Source of the DNA: the human T2T-CHM13v2.0 reference genome, Homo sapiens
Reading direction: 5' to 3' (one strand)
Assembly: GCF_009914755.1 (NCBI RefSeq)
Contig: NC_060928.1
Length of the DNA stretch: 64,000 nucleotides
The notes under the pieces were generated by a model. That model had not been told where the DNA came from. It worked only from the letters and a program-made list of their open reading frames with translations, and made no database searches. The translations under genes were made by a program, and so were the position numbers. Numbering within the stretch: the first letter of the stretch is position 1; each line of letters begins with the position of its first letter. Shown piece after piece: positions 35,717-43,354 of this stretch.

Positions 35717-36016
<300 letters not shown>

Positions 36017-37174
36017 TAAAAGCTTTTTTTGAAATAGCTTTAGACTCATAAAAGTTGCAAGAATATTACAGAGTTCCTGTTTACCTGTCACTCAGTTATT
36101 TCCCAATGATAACTTTATTTAACAATAATATTTTATCAAAACAATTAAATTTGGTGTACTGCTATTAACTAAACTACAGACCTAATTTGGATTTTACCAG
36201 TTTTATGTCTTACTTTAATTCATAAACTTTAAAGCATCTTTGGCTGGCTCTTTTTTCGGACTCAGCCCGCCTGCACCCAGATGAAATAGCCTTGTTGCTC
36301 ACACAAAGCCTGTTTGGTGGTTTCTTCACACGGACGCGAGAGACATTTGGTGCCAAAGACCCGAGTCAGAGGGACTCCTTCGGGAGACCAGTCCCCTGTT
36401 CTCACCCTCACTCTGTGAAGAGATGCACCTACCACCTTGGGTCCTCAGACCAACCAGCCCAAGGAACATCTCACCAATTTCAAATCCGGTAAGCGGTCTT
36501 TTCACTCTCTTCTCCAGCCTGTCTCGCTACCCTTCAATCTCCCTGTCCTTCCAATTCCAGTTCTTTTTCCTCTCTAGTAGAGACAAAGGAGACACATTTT
36601 ATCCATGGACCCAAAACTCCGGCGCCTGTCATGGACTCAGGAAGACAGTCTTCCCTTGGTGTTTAATCACTGTGGGGACGCCTGACTGATTATTCACCCA
36701 CATTTCATTGGTGTCTGATCACTGCAGGGAGCCTGCCTTGGTGATTCACCCACATTCCCTTGGTGGCAAGTCAATTGCGGGGACGTCTGCTTTGGTTGCT
36801 CACCCACATTGCAGCCCCGGGCTGCTCGCCCACCCCCTTCCCCGTGTCTCTACCTTTCTCTTTAAACTTACCTCCTTCACTATGGGCAACCTTCCGCCCT
36901 CCATTCCCCCTTCTCCCTTAGCCTGTGTTCTCAAGAACTTAAAACCTCTTCAACTCACACCTGACCTAAAACTTAAATGCCTTATTTTCTTCTGCAGTAC
37001 CACTTGGCTCCAATACAAACTCAACAGTAGTTCCAGGTGGCCGGAGAATGGCACTTTCAATTTGTCTATCCTACAAGATCTAGATAATTTTTGTTGAAAA
37101 ATGGGCAAATGGTCTGAGGTGCCTGATGTCTAGGCATTCTTTTACACATTTGTCCCTCCCTAGTCTCTGCTCCC

Positions 37175-37802
37175 AATGCGACTCATCCCAAATCCTTCTT
37201 CTTTCTCTCCTGTCTGTTCCTTCAGTCTCCACACCAAGCTCTGAGTCCTTTGAATCCTTTTCTACGGACTCATCTGACCTCTCCCCTTCTACCCAGGCTG
37301 CTCCTTGCCAGGCTGTGCCAGGTCCCAATTCTTCCTCAGCCTCTGCTCCCCCACCCTATAATCTTTCTATCACCTCCCCTCCTCACACCCGGTCTGGCTT
37401 ACAGTTTCCTTCCGCGACTAGCCCTTCCCCACCTGCCCAACAATTTCCTCTTGAAGAGGTGGCTGGAGTTAAAGGCATAGTCAAAGTTAATGCGACTCAT
37501 CCCAAATCCTTCTTCTTTCTCTCCTGTCTGTTCCTTCAGTCTCCACACCAAGCTCTGAGTCCTTTGAATCCTTTTCTGCGGACTCATCTGACCTCTCCCC
37601 TTCTACCCAGGCTGCTCCTTGCCAGGCTGTGCCAGGTCCCAATTCTTCCTCAGCCTCTGCTCCCCCACCCTATAATCTTTCTATCACTTCCCCTCCTCAC
37701 ACCCGGTCTGGCTTACAGTTTCCTTCCGCGACTAGCCCTTCCCCACCTGCCCAACAATTTCCTCTTGAAGAGGTGGCTGGAGTTAAAGGCATAGTCAAAG
37801 TT
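37175..37802 (+). repeat. 314-bp direct tandem duplication in the HERV-H pre-gag/gag region
   Basis: Copies 37175-37488 and 37489-37802; I found 2 mismatches by eye; AATGC at both junctions. Confidence 0.92.
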
Positions 37803-37962
37803 AATGCTCCTTTTTTCTTTATCCGACCTCTCCCAAATCAGTTAGCATTTAGGCTCTTTTTCATCAAATATAAAAACCCAGTGCAGTTCATGGCCCGTTT
37901 GGCAACAACCCTTAGATGCTTTACTGTCCTAGACCCCAGAGGAAGGCCGTCTTATTCTCAAT

Positions 37963-38439
37963 ATGCATTTTATCACCCAGTCAGCTCTTGACATTAGAAA
38001 ACTTCAAAAATTGGAATCCGGCCCTCAAACGCCACAACAGGAATTAATCAACCTCACCTTCAAGGTGTACAATAATAGAGAGGAGGTAGCCAGACAGCAA
38101 CGTGTTTCTGAGTTACAGCTACTTGCCTCCGCTGTAAGACAACCCACAACCATGTCTCCAGCATACAAGAACTTCAGAACATCCAAGCCACAGCTCCCAG
38201 GGGCTCCTTCAAAACATCCTTGTGGACCTTGCTTCAAATGCCAAAAGCCTGGCCCCTGGGCCTCAGAATGCCCGGTGCCCAAGATTCCTCCTAAGCCATG
38301 TCCTGCCTGTGTGGGCCCCCACTGGAGGTCAGACTATCCGACTCACATCGCTGCCGCTCCTAAAGCCCCTGGAGCCCAAACCCAATGTTCCTTGGCCGAC
38401 TCCTTCCCAGCTGTCCTCGGCTTAGTGGCTGAAGACTGA
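37963..38439 (+). pseudogene. HERV-H gag C-terminal (CA/NC) remnant
   Basis: HFITQSALDIRKLQKL capsid motif; knuckles CFKCQKPGPWASEC and CPACVGPHWRSDY are both broken. Confidence 0.85.
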
Positions 38440-40694
38440 TGCTGCCCGATCGCCTCGGAAGCCTCCTGGACCATCACAGATGCTTTGGGTAACTCTTACA
38501 GTGGAGGGTAAGTCTGTCCCCATCTTAATCAATACGGAGGCTACCCACTCCACATTACCTTCTTTTCAAGGGCCTGGTTCCCTTGCTTCCATAACTGTTG
38601 TGGGTATTGACGTCCAGGCTTCTAAGCCTCTTAAAACTCCCCAACTCTGATGCCAACTTGGACAACATTCTTTTATGCACTCCTTTTTAGTTATCCCCAC
38701 CTGCCCAGCTCCCTTATTAGATCGAGACATTTTAACTAAATTATCTGCTTCCCTGACTATTCCTGGGCTACAGCCACACCTCATTGCCACCTTTTCCCCC
38801 AGTTCAAAGCCTCCTTCGCATCCTCCCTTTGTATCTCCCCACCTTAATCCACAAGTATAGGACACCTCTACTCCCTCCTTGGTGACAGATGATGCACCCC
38901 TTACCATCCCATTAAAACCTAATCACCCTTACCCCGCTCAATGCCAATATCCCGTCCCACAGCACACTTTAAAAGGATTAAACCCTGTTATCACTCACCT
39001 GTTTCAGCATGGCCTTTTAAAGCCTATAAACTCTCCTTACAATTCCCCCATTTTACCTGTCCAAAAACCGGACAAGTCTTACAGGTTAGTTCAGGATCTG
39101 TGCTTTATCAACCAATGGTCTTGCCTATCCACCCTGTGGTGCCAAACCCATATACTCTCCTATCCTCAGTACCTCCCTCCACAACCCATTATTCTATTCT
39201 AGATAAACCTAGCTGACCCCATAGATCCTAAATCCTTTCGCCACTCCTTTCCGTTCCTTAAAAACAGCCCTAGAAGCTGCTCCCACAGTAGCTCTCCCTA
39301 ACTCATCCTAACCCTTTTCATTACACACAGCTGAAGTGCAGGGCTGTGCGGTCAGAGTTCTTACACAAGAGCTGGGACTGCGCCCTGTAGCCTTTCTGTC
39401 CAGACAACTTGACCTTACTGTTTTAGCCTAGCCCTCATGTCTGTGTGCAGTGGCTGCCACTGCTTTAATACTTTTAGAGGCCCTCAAAATCACAAGCTAT
39501 GCTCCACTTACTCTCTCCAGTTCCCATAACTTTCAAAATCTATTTTCCTCCTCACACTTGATGCATATACTTTCTGCCCCCTAGCTCCTTCAGCTATACT
39601 CACTCTTTGTTGAGTCTCCCACAATTACCATTTTTCCTGGCCGGGACTTCAATCCAGCCTCCCACATTATTCCTGATACCACACCTGACCTGCATGACTG
39701 TATCTCTCTGATACACCTGGCATTCACTCCATTTCCCCATATTTCCTTCTTTCCTGTTCCTCACCCTGATCACACCTGGTTTATTGATGGCAGTTTGATC
39801 AGGCCTAATCACCACTCACCAGCAAAGGCAGGCTATGCTATAGTATCTTCCACATCTATCATTGAGGCTACCGCTCTGCCCCCTCCACTACCTCTCAGCA
39901 AGCTGAACTCATTGCCTTAACTTGGGACCTCACTCTTACAAAGGGACTAGGCGTCAATATTTATACTGACTGTAAATATGCCTTCCATATCCTGCACCAC
40001 CATGCTGTTACATGGGCAGAAAGAAATTTCCTCACTATGCAAGTGTCCTCCATCATTAATGCCTCTTTAATAAAAACTCTTCTTAAAGGCACTTTACTTC
40101 CAAAGGAAGCTGGGGTCATTCACTGCAAGGGCCATCAAAAGGCATCAGATCCCATCACTCAGGGCAACGCTTATGCTGGTAAGGTAGCTAAAGAAGCAGC
40201 TAGCATTCCAACTTCTGTCCCTCATGGCCAGTTTTTCTCCTTTTCATTAGTCACTCCTATTTACTCTCCTACTGAAGTTTCCACCTATCAATCTGTTCCC
40301 ACACAAGGCAAATGGTTCTTGGACAAAGGAAAATATCTCCTTCCAGCCTCACAGGCCCATTCTATTCTGTCATCATTTCATAACCTCTTCTATGTAGGTT
40401 ACAAGCCATTATCCCGCCTCTTAAAACCTCTCATTTCCTTTCCATTGTGAATGTCTATCCCCAATCCTCCACTCTTGACTCCCTCTTGGAGTGGATAGAT
40501 GATCTTTGCTGACAGGACACACCCCAACACTTTCATCCTGATCAAGTCCTGTTCTTTACTTTTATACTCTTATTCTCGTTCCCATTCTTATGCCACCCTC
40601 TACCTCTCCCCAGCTATCTCCACCACAGTATCAATCTCACTCACTGTCTCCTAGCCATTTCTAATCCTTCTTTAACAAACAAAGCCAGCAGGCT

Positions 40695-41018
40695 TTGCAT
40701 TCCTCTTTCCTCCAAAATCGCCGAGGCCTCAATTTATTCACTGCTGAAAAAGGAGGACTCTGTATATTTTTAAATGAAGAGTGTTGTTTTTACCTAAATC
40801 AGTCTGGCCTGGTATATGACAACATAAAAAAACTCAAGGATAGAGCCCAAAAACTCGCCAACCAAGCAAATAATTATGCTGAACCCCTTTGGGCGCTCTC
40901 TAATTGGATGTCCTGGGTCCTCCCAATTCTTAGTCCTTTAATACCTGTTTTTCTCCTTCTCTCATTTGGACCATGTGTCTTCCTTTTACTTTCGCAATTC
41001 ATACAAAACCGCATCTAG
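40695..41018 (+). pseudogene. HERV-H env transmembrane remnant
   Basis: Immunosuppressive domain, CX6CC motif and hydrophobic TM segment; SU is deleted. Confidence 0.85.
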
Positions 41019-41421
41019 GCCATCACTAATCATTCTATACGACAAATGCTCCTTCTAACAACCCCACAACATCACCCCTTACCCAAAAATCTTTCTTCAG
41101 TTTAATCTTTCCCACTCTAGGTTCCCACACTGCCCCTGATCCCGCTAGAAGCAGCCCTGAGAAACATCGCCCATTATCTCTCCATACCACCCGTGAAAAT
41201 TTTCACTGCCCCAACAGTTCACCACTATTTTGTTTTGTTTTTCTTATTAATATATGAAGACAGGAATGTCAGGCCTCTGAGCCCAAGCTAAGCCATCATA
41301 TCACCTGTGATCTACATGTATACATCCAGTTGGCCTGAAGCAACTGAAGATCCACAAAAGAAGTGAAAATAGCCTTAACTGATGACATTCCACAATTGTG
41401 ATTTGTTCCTGCCACACCCTG

Positions 41422-41588
41422 ATATAATATATTCTCCCCTGCCCTCAAGAAGGTACTTTGTAATATTCTCCCCCCCACCCCCCTGCCCTTAAGAAGGTAC
41501 TTTGTAATATTCTACCCCCCCAGCCTGCCCTTAAGAAGGTACTTTGTAATATTCTACCCCCCCAGCCTGCCCTTAAGAAGGTACTTTG
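41422..41588 (+). repeat. Four ~39-44-bp tandem repeats in HERV-H U3
   Basis: TAATATTCT(C/A)CCCC...CTGCCCT(C/T)AAGAAGGTACTTTG x4; the last two are identical 42-mers; TATA-like CCTATAA follows at ~41605. Confidence 0.9.
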
Positions 41589-43354
41589 TACGCCTATCCC
41601 AAACCTATAAGAACTAGTGATAATCCCACCACCCTTTGCTGACTCTCTTTTCGGACTCAGCCCGCCTGCACCCAGGTGAAATAAACAGCCTTGTTGCTCA
41701 CACACACATACACAAAATAAAACATTAAAAAAAAATCTTTATTTCTTAAGAGCAGTTTTAGGTTCATAGCAAAATTGAGCAGAAAGTAAAGCATCTCATA
41801 TACTCACTGTTCCTCCTTTGCCCTCCAGAGCCATCCCTACTATCAGCATTTACCTCCATACTTGGTACATTTGTTGCAATTAATGAACCTACATCAACAT
41901 ATTACCCAAAGCCCATGGTTTACATTAGGGTTCATTCTTGGTGTTATACATTCAGTGTGTTTAGACAAACGTATATTTATCTGCCATTGTTTTTACTGCC
42001 CTAAAAATCCCCGTTTCTGCCTGTTCATCCCTATCATCCCTGCCAAGTAATCATTTTACTATATTCATAGTTTTGCATTTTCTAGAATGTCATATACTTG
42101 GAATCATATAGTATGTAGCCTTTTCATATTGGCTTCATTCACTTTTCACTTAGTAATATGTATTTTTAAGTTTCCTCCATGTCTTTTCATGGCTTTATCA
42201 CTCATTTATTTTTAGTGCTGAATAATATTCCATCACCTGATGTAAAACAGTTTACCCACTAACCTACTGCAGGATGTTTTGATTGTTCTGAGGTTTTGGC
42301 AATTATGAATAAAGCTCCTATAAACATCCATGTGCAGGTTTTTATGTGGACTAAGTTTTCAGCTTCTTTGGGTAAATATCAAGGAGAGCAGTTGCAGGAT
42401 TGCATGGTAAGAATATATTCAATTTTATAAGAAATGGTCAAATGGTATTTGAAAGTGGATATGTGCCATTTTGTATTCCCACCAGCAATGAAAGAGTACC
42501 CATTGTTTCACACCCACTTCAGCATTTGGTGTTGTTATTGTTTTGGAGTTTGGTCACTCTTGTAGATCTGTAGTGGTATCTTGTTTTAATTTTGATTCCC
42601 TAATGACATGATGTTGAACATCTTTTCACATACTTACTTACCATCTGTATATCTTCTTTGGTGAGGTTCTGTTTGTGTTTTGGGGCTCATTTTCTTATTG
42701 TTGAGTTATGAGTTCTTTGTATGTTTTGGATGACAGTCCTTTTTCATGTCTCTTGGAAGTATTTTTTTCCCAGTCTGTGACTTGTCTTACTCCATTGGCA
42801 TTGTCTTTCATAGAGCACAAGTGTTTTATTTTAATGAAGTCCAGTTTTATCAGTTATTTCTTTCATGGATAGTGCCTTTGATGTTGTAGCTAAAAAGTCA
42901 TTGTTTTGCCAAAGGTCATCTAGTTATCTTCTAGGAATTTTATAGTTTTGCATTTTAAATTTAGGTCTATTATTTATTTTGAGTTAATTTTTTATGAAAG
43001 GTGTAAGGTCTGTGTCTTGGTTTATGTCTTTGCATGTGGATGTCTACAAAGATGGTTGACCATTCAACAATCTTTGTTGAAAAGATTGTCTTTTCTCCAC
43101 TGTATTACTTTTGCTCCTTTGTTGAAGATCAGTTGACTATATTTATGTAGGTCTATTTCTGAGCTTTCTACTCTGTTCCATTGGCCTGTTTACCAGTTCT
43201 TTTGCCAATACCACACTGTCTTCATTACCGTTGCTTTATAATAAATCTTGAAGTCAGATAGAGTCAGTCCTACAACTTTGTTCTTCTTTAACATTGAGTT
43301 GGCCATTCTGAGTCCTCTGCCTTTCCATATAAACCTAATTTTTATTTTTTATTA

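What the first reader, a model, noticed from the sequence alone, without database searches (positions are those of the whole stretch)
36236..41735. HERV-H that looks like an L1-retroposed mRNA copy, not a provirus
Seen: the 5' LTR has no U3. It begins at a position equivalent to about 20-25 nt after the TATA-like CCTATAA of the 3' LTR and contains only R-U5. The 3' LTR has U3-R but stops at TTGCTCACACA, about 20 nt after AATAAA (41680-41685), and continues as an A-rich tail with no U5. A candidate TSD AAAC(T/A)TTAAA sits at ~36224-36233 and ~41720-41729. Known: R-U5...U3-R-polyA with long TSDs is the signature of LINE-1-mediated processed copies, well described for HERV-W and less commonly for HERV-H. 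The major splice donor (36489) is retained, so unspliced RNA was copied. Inference: the element has no promoter of its own at the 5' end and lies 0.9 kb downstream of DCK in the same orientation.
Basis: partly seen in the sequence, partly recalled or inferred. Interest (0 to 1): 0.8.

Follow-up and report, generated by a model that had tools for sequence, protein, structure and literature searches.

The report
HERV-H copy made by LINE-1
This 5.5-kb HERV-H element just downstream of DCK is not an integrated provirus but an old LINE-1-made DNA copy of a full-length HERV-H RNA, and this genome holds dozens of similar HERV-H copies.

Summary
The element starts at window 36242 with R-U5 and no U3. 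It ends at about 41702 with U3-R and no U5. The 5' edge lies 32 nt after the TATA box. It has the same first bases (GGCTG.CTC) as 14 other U3-less HERV-H 5' ends found in this genome. Three of those pair with poly(A) tails and 11-16 nt target-site duplications. The 3' edge is the point where 30 other HERV-H copies carry clean poly(A) tails, many with varied 5' truncations. It is supported only at about the 1-3% level. Best reading, about 0.88: an ancient LINE-1-mediated retrocopy of unspliced HERV-H RNA. This is a new member of a kind known for HERV-W. The locus is ordinary. The size of the HERV-H class is mildly notable, since a review calls HERV-W the sole such group.

The parts
36016..36208 (-). 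Old L1-type 3' end fragment (repeat X) forming the 5' flank. Not part of the HERV-H copy.
   Evidence: 39 paralogous matches at about 70-74% identity, ending at query 189-201; paralogs share a defined T-rich-preceded start and continue beyond 36208 where the window does not. The L1M label is recalled, not tested against a repeat library.
36224..36241 (+). 5' copy of the target-site duplication (AAACTTTAAAGCATCTTT), abutting the insert.
   Evidence: aligns end to end with 41720-41740 (15 matches, 3 mismatches, a 3-nt A-run length difference). That score is reached by 222 of 21229 window 18-mers, 196 of 5744 AT-rich 18-mers and 44 of 5000 shuffles.
36242..36305 (+). 5' R. The first base, 36242, is a G where complete LTR7 copies of this type have T. 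It may be an untemplated cap-derived G.
   Evidence: R-R alignment; 14 other U3-less copies start with the same GGCTGACTC. PMC6425141 (passages read) reports an untemplated G at an LTR7Y start site in an L1-made insertion.
36306..36345 (+). U5.
   Evidence: matches the U5 of complete LTR7 copies (L002-L008 reach window-equivalent 36335-36351).
36348..36365 (+). Primer-binding site, decayed.
   Evidence: the first 7 nt (TGGTGCC) match the complement of the 3' end plus CCA of a tRNA-His gene of this genome (L105); the rest has diverged. By eye against the string, 5' ends in other loci (L074, L075) match 17 of 18.
36366..41267 (+). Internal HERV-H sequence: unspliced leader with GT at 36489-36490, plus gag, pol and env remnants. 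No long intact frame.
   Evidence: frames are broken; longest stop-to-stop 236 aa; zf-CCHC, E 0.0014, below cut-off (37933-38439); RNase_H, E 4e-13 (39866-40450); C-terminal part of TLV_coat, E 2e-31 (40665-41018); 38000-40200 is collinear with about 15 other copies at 84-89%; collinear with provirus L007 from 36240 to 37866.
37175..37802 (+). Tandem duplication of 314 bp inside the element, arisen after insertion.
   Evidence: period 314, 2.0 copies, 99%; 2 differences in 314.
41268..41637 (+). Complete U3 of the 3' LTR, with a 42-nt repeat (3.6 copies, 41438-41590) and TATAA at 41606-41610.
   Evidence: most of the 40 scored LTR7 copies match from query base 1. (repeat)..
41638..41702 (+). 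3' R with AATAAA (41680-41685), ending at GCTCACA, the cleavage and poly(A) site used by other copies.
   Evidence: in other copies poly(A) follows GCTCA(CA) or a GCTCA(CA)n variant.
41703..41719 (+). Short, decayed A-rich tail (CACACATACACAAAATA; 10 A of 17). The first part may be a CA-repeat variant of the R end.
   Evidence: four other copies (L049, L053, L058, L063) read GCTCA(CA)n and then poly(A).
41720..41740 (+). 3' copy of the target-site duplication (AAACATTAAAAAAAAATCTTT).
   Evidence: from about 41723 it aligns with the terminal sequence of the L1-type repeat that continues downstream.
41723..42200 (-). Old L1-type 3' end (repeat Y) that was the insertion target. It continues beyond 42200.
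   Evidence: paralogs at 68-73% identity. The 15 inspected all begin near the same terminal sequence, preceded by T-rich or unrelated DNA.

Best explanation
A HERV-H provirus elsewhere in the genome was transcribed from the start site in its 5' LTR. The RNA stayed unspliced and was cleaved and polyadenylated about 17 nt after the AATAAA of its 3' LTR. LINE-1 ORF2 protein then used this RNA in trans. It nicked an A/T-rich site about 18 nt inside the 3' terminus of an older L1 copy, primed reverse transcription on the poly(A) tail, and copied the RNA to its capped 5' end.

The result is R-U5-leader-gag/pol/env remnants-U3-R-(A)n, flanked by a duplication of about 18-21 nt. The copy has no promoter at its 5' end. 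It did bring a complete U3 promoter region at its 3' end, pointing downstream. Afterwards the tail decayed, a 314-bp internal tandem duplication arose, and the 5' R lost 4 nt of its poly(A) signal.

Shown: the anatomy of both ends, the absence of U3 and U5 nearby, and the match of both ends to those of other retroposed HERV-H copies. Inferred: LINE-1 as the agent, the cap origin of the first G, the exact limits of the duplication, and an age of tens of millions of years.
For: (a) Ends. The 5' end is R-U5 only and the 3' end is U3-R only. No U3 or U5 lies within 1 kb outside.

(b) The 5' edge is an RNA 5' end.
- It lies 32 nt after TATAA.
- An exact search for the degenerate pattern GGCTGRCTCTYTTTTCGGACTCAGCC, written from the first 26 nt (R = A/G, Y = C/T), gave 41 hits and 0 in the reversed control.
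- Of these, 10 are both LTRs of 5 proviruses, 1 is this element, and 30 are singles.
- Of the 30 singles, 15 have U3 upstream, 1 is an inverted R junction, and 14 have unrelated flank right up to GGCTGAC.
- Three of the 14 lie 4.3, 5.5 and 2.8 kb upstream, on the same strand, of poly(A)-tailed R ends. They share duplications with them of 13 nt (1 mismatch), 16 nt and at least 11 nt.
- One R-only copy (L064) starts with the same GGCTGACTC and has a 13-14 nt duplication.

(c) The 3' edge is an RNA 3' end.
- The R end followed by A10 (up to 2 mismatches) gave 30 hits and 0 control.
- 30 of 30 carry LTR7-like U3-R ending at that point. 19 of 30 have HERV-H internal sequence upstream and 11 of 30 are truncated inside the LTR.
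- 5' truncation points vary. Two copies followed further end at window-equivalents of about 40143 and 38382.

(d) The duplication of 18 against 21 nt abuts both edges.

(e) The target is the A/T-rich terminus of an old L1 copy.
Against: The poly(A) tail is poor: 17 nt with 10 A.

The A9 run that looks like a tail is probably target sequence.

The duplication has 3 mismatches and a 3-nt length difference. It is only moderately unlikely by chance:
- End-to-end test: 222 of 21229 window 18-mers, 196 of 5744 AT-rich 18-mers and 44 of 5000 shuffles reach its score.
- Looser local test: 379 of 9099, 539 of 3304 and 211 of 5000.
- An unanchored comparison of the flanks picked a different 10-mer and was not significant (102 of 2000).

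The bases before the duplication (CAT|AAAC) fit the recalled L1 nicking preference only partly.

The extra first G is not proof of a cap. 15 ordinary LTRs and 5 proviruses carry GG at that place as an inherited variant, and my search pattern required GG, so its frequency among U3-less copies is unknown.

No source provirus was found. The best internal match is 89% and the best LTR match 88% (only 40 of 1203 and 40 of 2533 candidates were scored).

No empty orthologous site could be inspected.
Confidence: 0.88

Rival explanations
1. An ordinary integrated HERV-H provirus that later lost its 5' U3 and its 3' U5 through two separate deletions.
For: Old proviruses often carry terminal deletions. 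The tail is poor and the duplication imperfect, so neither by itself excludes this.
Against: Two independent deletions would have to end exactly at the RNA start and at the poly(A) site. These are the same two points seen in 14 and 30 other copies respectively. The deletions would also have to leave an 18-21 nt repeat abutting both edges. No U3 or U5 remnant lies within 1 kb.
Confidence: 0.04
2. A cDNA copy of HERV-H RNA inserted without L1 endonuclease. Either it was captured at a DNA break (endonuclease-independent L1 or another reverse transcriptase), or it is an aberrant product of the retrovirus's own reverse transcription that skipped the strand transfers.
For: The nick-site context is only a partial fit. 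The tail is short and the duplication imperfect.
Against: Break-capture insertions usually lack duplications and often lack tails (established knowledge, recalled). Sister copies with the same 5' start show clean tails and 11-16 nt duplications. The target is an A/T-rich tract.
Confidence: 0.06
3. Chance or an assembly artefact, so that the apparent truncations are not biological.
For: None found.
Against: The window comes from a complete assembly per the hub note. The junctions are unique sequence read straight through.
Confidence: 0.01

Closest known systems
HERV-W (LTR17/HERV17) processed pseudogenes made by LINE-1. Sources: Pavlicek et al. 2002 (not held; title seen only in reference lists, content recalled); Grandi et al. 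2016, PMC5016936 (passages read); Grandi and Tramontano 2017, PMC5537654 (abstract and passages read).
   Same: R-U5...U3-R layout collinear with the viral RNA, a poly(A) tail, long duplications, frequent 5' truncation in the class, and no promoter at the 5' end.
   Different: A different retroviral family: LTR7 and HERV-H internal sequence, with a His-type primer site. The review abstract calls HERV-W the sole HERV group specifically mobilised by L1, so HERV-H copies of this kind are at least not prominent in print. This copy is old, and its tail is decayed.
Canonical HERV-H provirus of the common deleted form (LTR7-HERVH-LTR7).
   Same: The internal sequence is collinear with many proviruses at 84-89%, and the gag, RNase H and env TM remnants are the same.
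   Different: Proviruses have two complete U3-R-U5 LTRs (for example L006, L007, L072/L073, L075/L076). This element has neither a 5' U3 nor a 3' U5.
Processed pseudogenes (retrocopies) of cellular mRNAs made by LINE-1.
   Same: Start at the transcript 5' end, end at the poly(A) site, A-rich tail, 7-20 nt duplication, and no promoter (features recalled from established knowledge; PMC5753468 passage read on L1 mobilising polyadenylated RNAs).
   Different: The template is an unspliced retroviral RNA. It therefore carries a complete U3 promoter near its 3' end.
L1 5' transduction started at an LTR7Y start site (Salvador-Palomeque et al. 2019, PMC6425141; passages read).
   Same: An RNA started in a HERV-H LTR was copied by L1, and the copy begins with a single untemplated G, taken as a cap mark.
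   Different: That RNA was spliced into an L1 and moved as part of it. Here the whole HERV-H RNA is the template.

Membership tests
HERV-H (LTR7/HERVH) | LTR homologous to LTR7-group LTRs. | tested here: met
   40 of 40 scored genome matches cover the 439-nt U3-R (39 non-self, 78-88% identity; 2533 first-look candidates). The LTR7 subfamily was not resolved because no repeat library is on hand.
HERV-H (LTR7/HERVH) | Internal sequence homologous and collinear with HERV-H copies. | tested here: met
   1203 candidates, with about 15 full-length matches to 38000-40200 at 84-89%; collinear with L007; retroviral RNase H and gamma-type env TM remnants.
HERV-H (LTR7/HERVH) | Primer-binding site complementary to tRNA-His. 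| tested here: inconclusive
   only the first 7 nt still match the complement of a tRNA-His 3' end of this genome; the rest has decayed. By eye, 5' ends in other loci (L074, L075) keep 17 of 18.
LINE-1-mediated processed pseudogene | Begins at the transcription start (R), with no U3. | tested here: met
   Same start as 14 other U3-less copies. 32 nt after TATAA. No experimental start-site paper could be read (PMC189804 not held).
LINE-1-mediated processed pseudogene | Ends at the poly(A) site (end of R), with no U5. | tested here: met
   Same end as 30 poly(A)-tailed copies.
LINE-1-mediated processed pseudogene | Poly(A) tail. | tested here: inconclusive
   41703-41719 is A-rich (10 of 17) but decayed. 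The neighbouring A9 run aligns with target L1 sequence.
LINE-1-mediated processed pseudogene | Target-site duplication of about 7-20 nt abutting both ends. | tested here: met
   18 against 21 nt: 15 matches, 3 mismatches, one 3-nt gap. Reached by 1.0% of window 18-mers, 3.4% of AT-rich ones and 0.9% of shuffles. Support is moderate only.
LINE-1-mediated processed pseudogene | T-rich/A nick-site motif at the start of the duplication (motif recalled). | tested here: inconclusive
   The context is TTCAT|AAAC, a partial fit. The tail/duplication border is ambiguous by a few bases.
LINE-1-mediated processed pseudogene | An empty orthologous site with one copy of the target. | not testable with these tools
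   No primate genomes are on hand. Paralogs of the target repeat give only indirect support.
Integrase-made provirus | Two complete LTRs with their outer ends and a short duplication. | tested here: not met
   The 5' U3 and 3' U5 are absent, with no remnants within 1 kb.

The most novel reading that the evidence does not exclude
HERV-H RNA was a recurrent LINE-1 template. This genome holds at least about 40 independent retroposed HERV-H copies: 30 poly(A)-tailed R ends, three of which are segmental duplicates of one event, plus 14 U3-less 5' ends, three of which pair with those tails. Forms include full-length, 5'-truncated and R-only copies and a VNTR-LTR7 composite. If so, HERV-W is not the only HERV family spread this way. 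A share of the loci counted as HERV-H 'proviruses' would then be promoterless L1-made copies, which has largely gone unremarked in print.
Probability: 0.35. Interest if true: 0.55.

Novelty: new member of a known kind. Interest (0 to 1): 0.4.

Why it matters
For this locus, very little. It is an old, broken, unannotated retrocopy 0.9 kb past the end of DCK, with no promoter at its 5' end.

The wider point is for annotation. HERV-H loci are widely analysed as LTR7-driven transcription units in early embryos and stem cells, and large surveys did not separate processed copies from proviruses (PMC4724089, passage read). Copies like this one cannot start their own RNA from the 5' end, yet they place a complete U3 promoter at their 3' end facing the flank.

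The dozens of tailed and U3-less HERV-H copies found here also show that L1 acted on HERV-H RNA many times. That fits the high HERV-H expression in cells where L1 is active (an idea voiced in PMC6425141).

Tried and rejected
Source provirus. A 2.2-kb internal query and the 3' LTR found nothing closer than 89% and 88%. Only 40 candidates were scored in each search, so a source may exist unseen.

Paralogous empty site.
- The 3' flank is an old L1-type 3' end. Its paralogs end where the window's 3' flank begins, so they bound the target but do not span it.
- The 5' flank is a second, separate old L1-type fragment.
- Its continuation is not elsewhere in the window. I first thought one repeat had inserted into the other and dropped that idea.

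Unanchored duplication search. It picked an unrelated 10-mer and was not significant.

Crude duplication finder on the tailed copies. It ran on 26 of the 30 copies; 4 whose homology reaches the locus edge were skipped. I count 6 of 26 as convincing (L041, L054, L057, L058, L064, L066). For most of the rest, the start reported by BLAST is an internal breakpoint relative to my query, not the copy's true 5' end.

Alignment rows. In one search, two rows (chr8, chr5) were given on the wrong strand and are uninformative. One search repaired this.

Literature.
- Searches (0 papers) found no paper in the held library that describes HERV-H processed pseudogenes.
- Pavlicek 2002 (PMC155283) and Sjottem 1996 (PMC189804) are not held. 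I cannot say whether the first mentions HERV-H or where the second maps the start site.
- The eLife LTR7 paper (PMC8912925) has nothing on start or poly(A) sites.

LTR7 subfamily and insertion age were not determined.
Full report
**What is there**

The window is human chr4, according to the hub note. Between 36242 and about 41719 on the + strand lies a HERV-H element whose two terminal repeats are both incomplete, in complementary ways.

- The two repeats share only about 65 nt: 36243-36305 against 41638-41704. They differ by 3 substitutions and a 4-nt deletion in the 5' copy.
- The 5' copy continues into U5 (to 36345). After a 2-nt spacer comes a decayed primer site, then the leader.
- The 3' LTR begins at 41268, where most of the 40 scored LTR7 copies of this genome also begin.
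- It carries a 42-nt repeat (3.6 copies), TATAA at 41606-41610 and AATAAA at 41680-41685, and stops at GCTCACA(CA) at 41702/41704.
- Complete LTR7 copies go on from that point into a U5 of about 43 nt. This holds for 3 informative rows and for 7 of 7 loci.
- Nothing resembling U3 lies in the 1 kb upstream, and nothing resembling U5 in the 1 kb downstream.

The interior is ordinary decayed HERV-H.

- All frames are broken.
- Pfam finds a weak gag zinc knuckle, an RNase H remnant and the C-terminal part of a gamma-type env.
- The interior is collinear with other copies at 84-89%.
- A 314-bp stretch is tandemly duplicated, with 2 differences in 314.

**Are the two edges RNA ends?**

I tested this against other copies in the same genome rather than from memory.

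3' edge:
- The R end followed by ten A (up to 2 mismatches) occurs 30 times. The reversed control occurs 0 times.
- All 30 carry LTR7-like U3-R ending at that point. Of these, 19 have HERV-H internal sequence upstream and 11 are cut within the LTR.
- Tails run from about 7-10 to about 30 A, and 5' truncation points vary widely. Two copies followed further end at window-equivalents of about 40143 and 38382.
- Three of the 30 (chr9) are segmental duplicates of one event.
- Six of the 26 copies examined show convincing duplications of 11-18 nt.

5' edge:
- The degenerate pattern written from the first 26 nt (R = A/G, Y = C/T) occurs 41 times exactly, against 0 in the control.
- Ten of these are the paired LTRs of five proviruses, one is this element, and 30 are singles.
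- Of the 30 singles, 15 have normal U3 upstream (an inherited T-to-G variant) and one is an inverted R junction.
- The other 14 have unrelated flank right up to GGCTGAC.
- Three of the 14 lie 4.3, 5.5 and 2.8 kb upstream, on the same strand, of three of the tailed R ends. They share duplications with them of 13 nt (one mismatch), 16 nt and at least 11 nt.
- I did not fetch the DNA between those paired ends. That each pair is one insertion rests on strand, distance and the matching duplications.
- An R-only copy (L064) begins with the same GGCTGACTC and has a 13-14 nt duplication.

So both edges of the window's element are the edges that HERV-H RNA copies have elsewhere. The start also lies 32 nt after the TATA box.

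**The first G**

The first base (36242) is a G where complete LTR7 copies of the closest type have T. A single untemplated G at an LTR7Y start site has been read as a cap mark in an L1-made insertion (PMC6425141, passages). Here it could equally be an inherited variant. Because my pattern required GG, I cannot say how common it is among U3-less copies.

**Tail and duplication: the weak points**

After GCTCACA come 17 nt that are A-rich but decayed (10 A of 17). Four other copies read GCTCA(CA)n before their tails, so part of this stretch may be R.

All 15 inspected paralogs begin near the same sequence, preceded by T-rich or unrelated DNA. The L1M name is recalled.

The last 18 nt before the insert (36224-36241) align end to end with 41720-41740: 15 matches, 3 mismatches and a 3-nt A-run length difference.

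- In the end-to-end test, that score is reached by 222 of 21229 window 18-mers, 196 of 5744 AT-rich ones and 44 of 5000 shuffles.
- A looser local test gives 4-16%.
- An unanchored search was not significant.

The duplication is therefore probable but not proven. If only the final ATCTTT is duplicated, the tail would be 32 nt and the duplication 6 nt. The paralog alignment argues against that reading.

The 5' flank (36016-36208) is a second, separate old L1-type fragment. It does not help to rebuild the empty site.

**Mechanism**

Best reading, about 0.88: LINE-1 copied an unspliced, capped, polyadenylated HERV-H RNA in trans into the A/T-rich end of an older L1 copy.

- Two terminal deletions of a provirus (about 0.04) would have to hit both RNA ends exactly.
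- An endonuclease-independent or other reverse-transcriptase route (about 0.06) cannot be fully excluded without the empty site.

No source provirus was found. The best matches are 88-89%, with only 40 candidates scored per search. This fits an old event, but I did not date it.

**What is known**

This layout is the textbook one for HERV-W processed pseudogenes (PMC5016936 and PMC5537654, passages read). The 2017 review abstract calls HERV-W the sole HERV group specifically mobilised by L1. A large HERV survey states that processed pseudogenes were not separated from proviruses (PMC4724089, passage read).

Seven searches of the held library found no description of HERV-H processed copies. The founding paper (Pavlicek 2002) is not held, so prior mention cannot be excluded.

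**Verdict**

The locus itself is ordinary. It is a new member of a known kind, with modest added interest from the size of the HERV-H class seen here.

Noticed in passing
L042, L043, L044 (G000 C9 at 42.41, 47.59 and 77.28 Mb) and L052 (C5 at 29.04 Mb): All four carry the same composite. Its parts, in order: more than 0.8 kb of shared unique sequence; an antisense Alu-like piece; GC-rich repeat units of about 37 nt that resemble an SVA VNTR (label recalled); the last roughly 360 nt of an LTR7 (from window-equivalent 41348) ending at the R end; and poly(A). The chr9 copies share their 3' flank, but the chr5 copy has a different one. The composite RNA therefore seems to have been retroposed at least twice.
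   Followed up: partly
L064 (G000 C14 at 33.49 Mb): A copy consisting of R alone (about 75 nt, from the start site to the poly(A) site) plus a long tail and a 13-14 nt duplication. This looks like a retroposed transcript that started and ended within one LTR.
   Followed up: partly
L080 (G000 C3 at 90.15 Mb): The reverse complement of R-U5 abuts the R start head to head. This is an inverted junction of two HERV-H R ends.
   Followed up: no
window 37175-37802: A 314-bp tandem duplication inside the gag region of the element, with only 2 differences in 314. It is much younger than the insertion.
   Followed up: partly
window 41268-41704: The retrocopy delivered a complete U3 with TATA box and R start at its 3' end, facing downstream on the + strand. 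SLC4A4 starts about 25 kb further on the same strand, per the hub table. Whether this promoter fires was not testable here.
   Followed up: no
window 35900-36015 and 36016-36208: An Alu and a short old L1-type 3' end fragment lie between DCK and the element. The Alu call is by eye plus Alu-like hits of the first roughly 65 nt of the flank query. The L1-type fragment is shown. So the 0.9 kb between DCK and the HERV-H copy is mostly repeats.
   Followed up: partly
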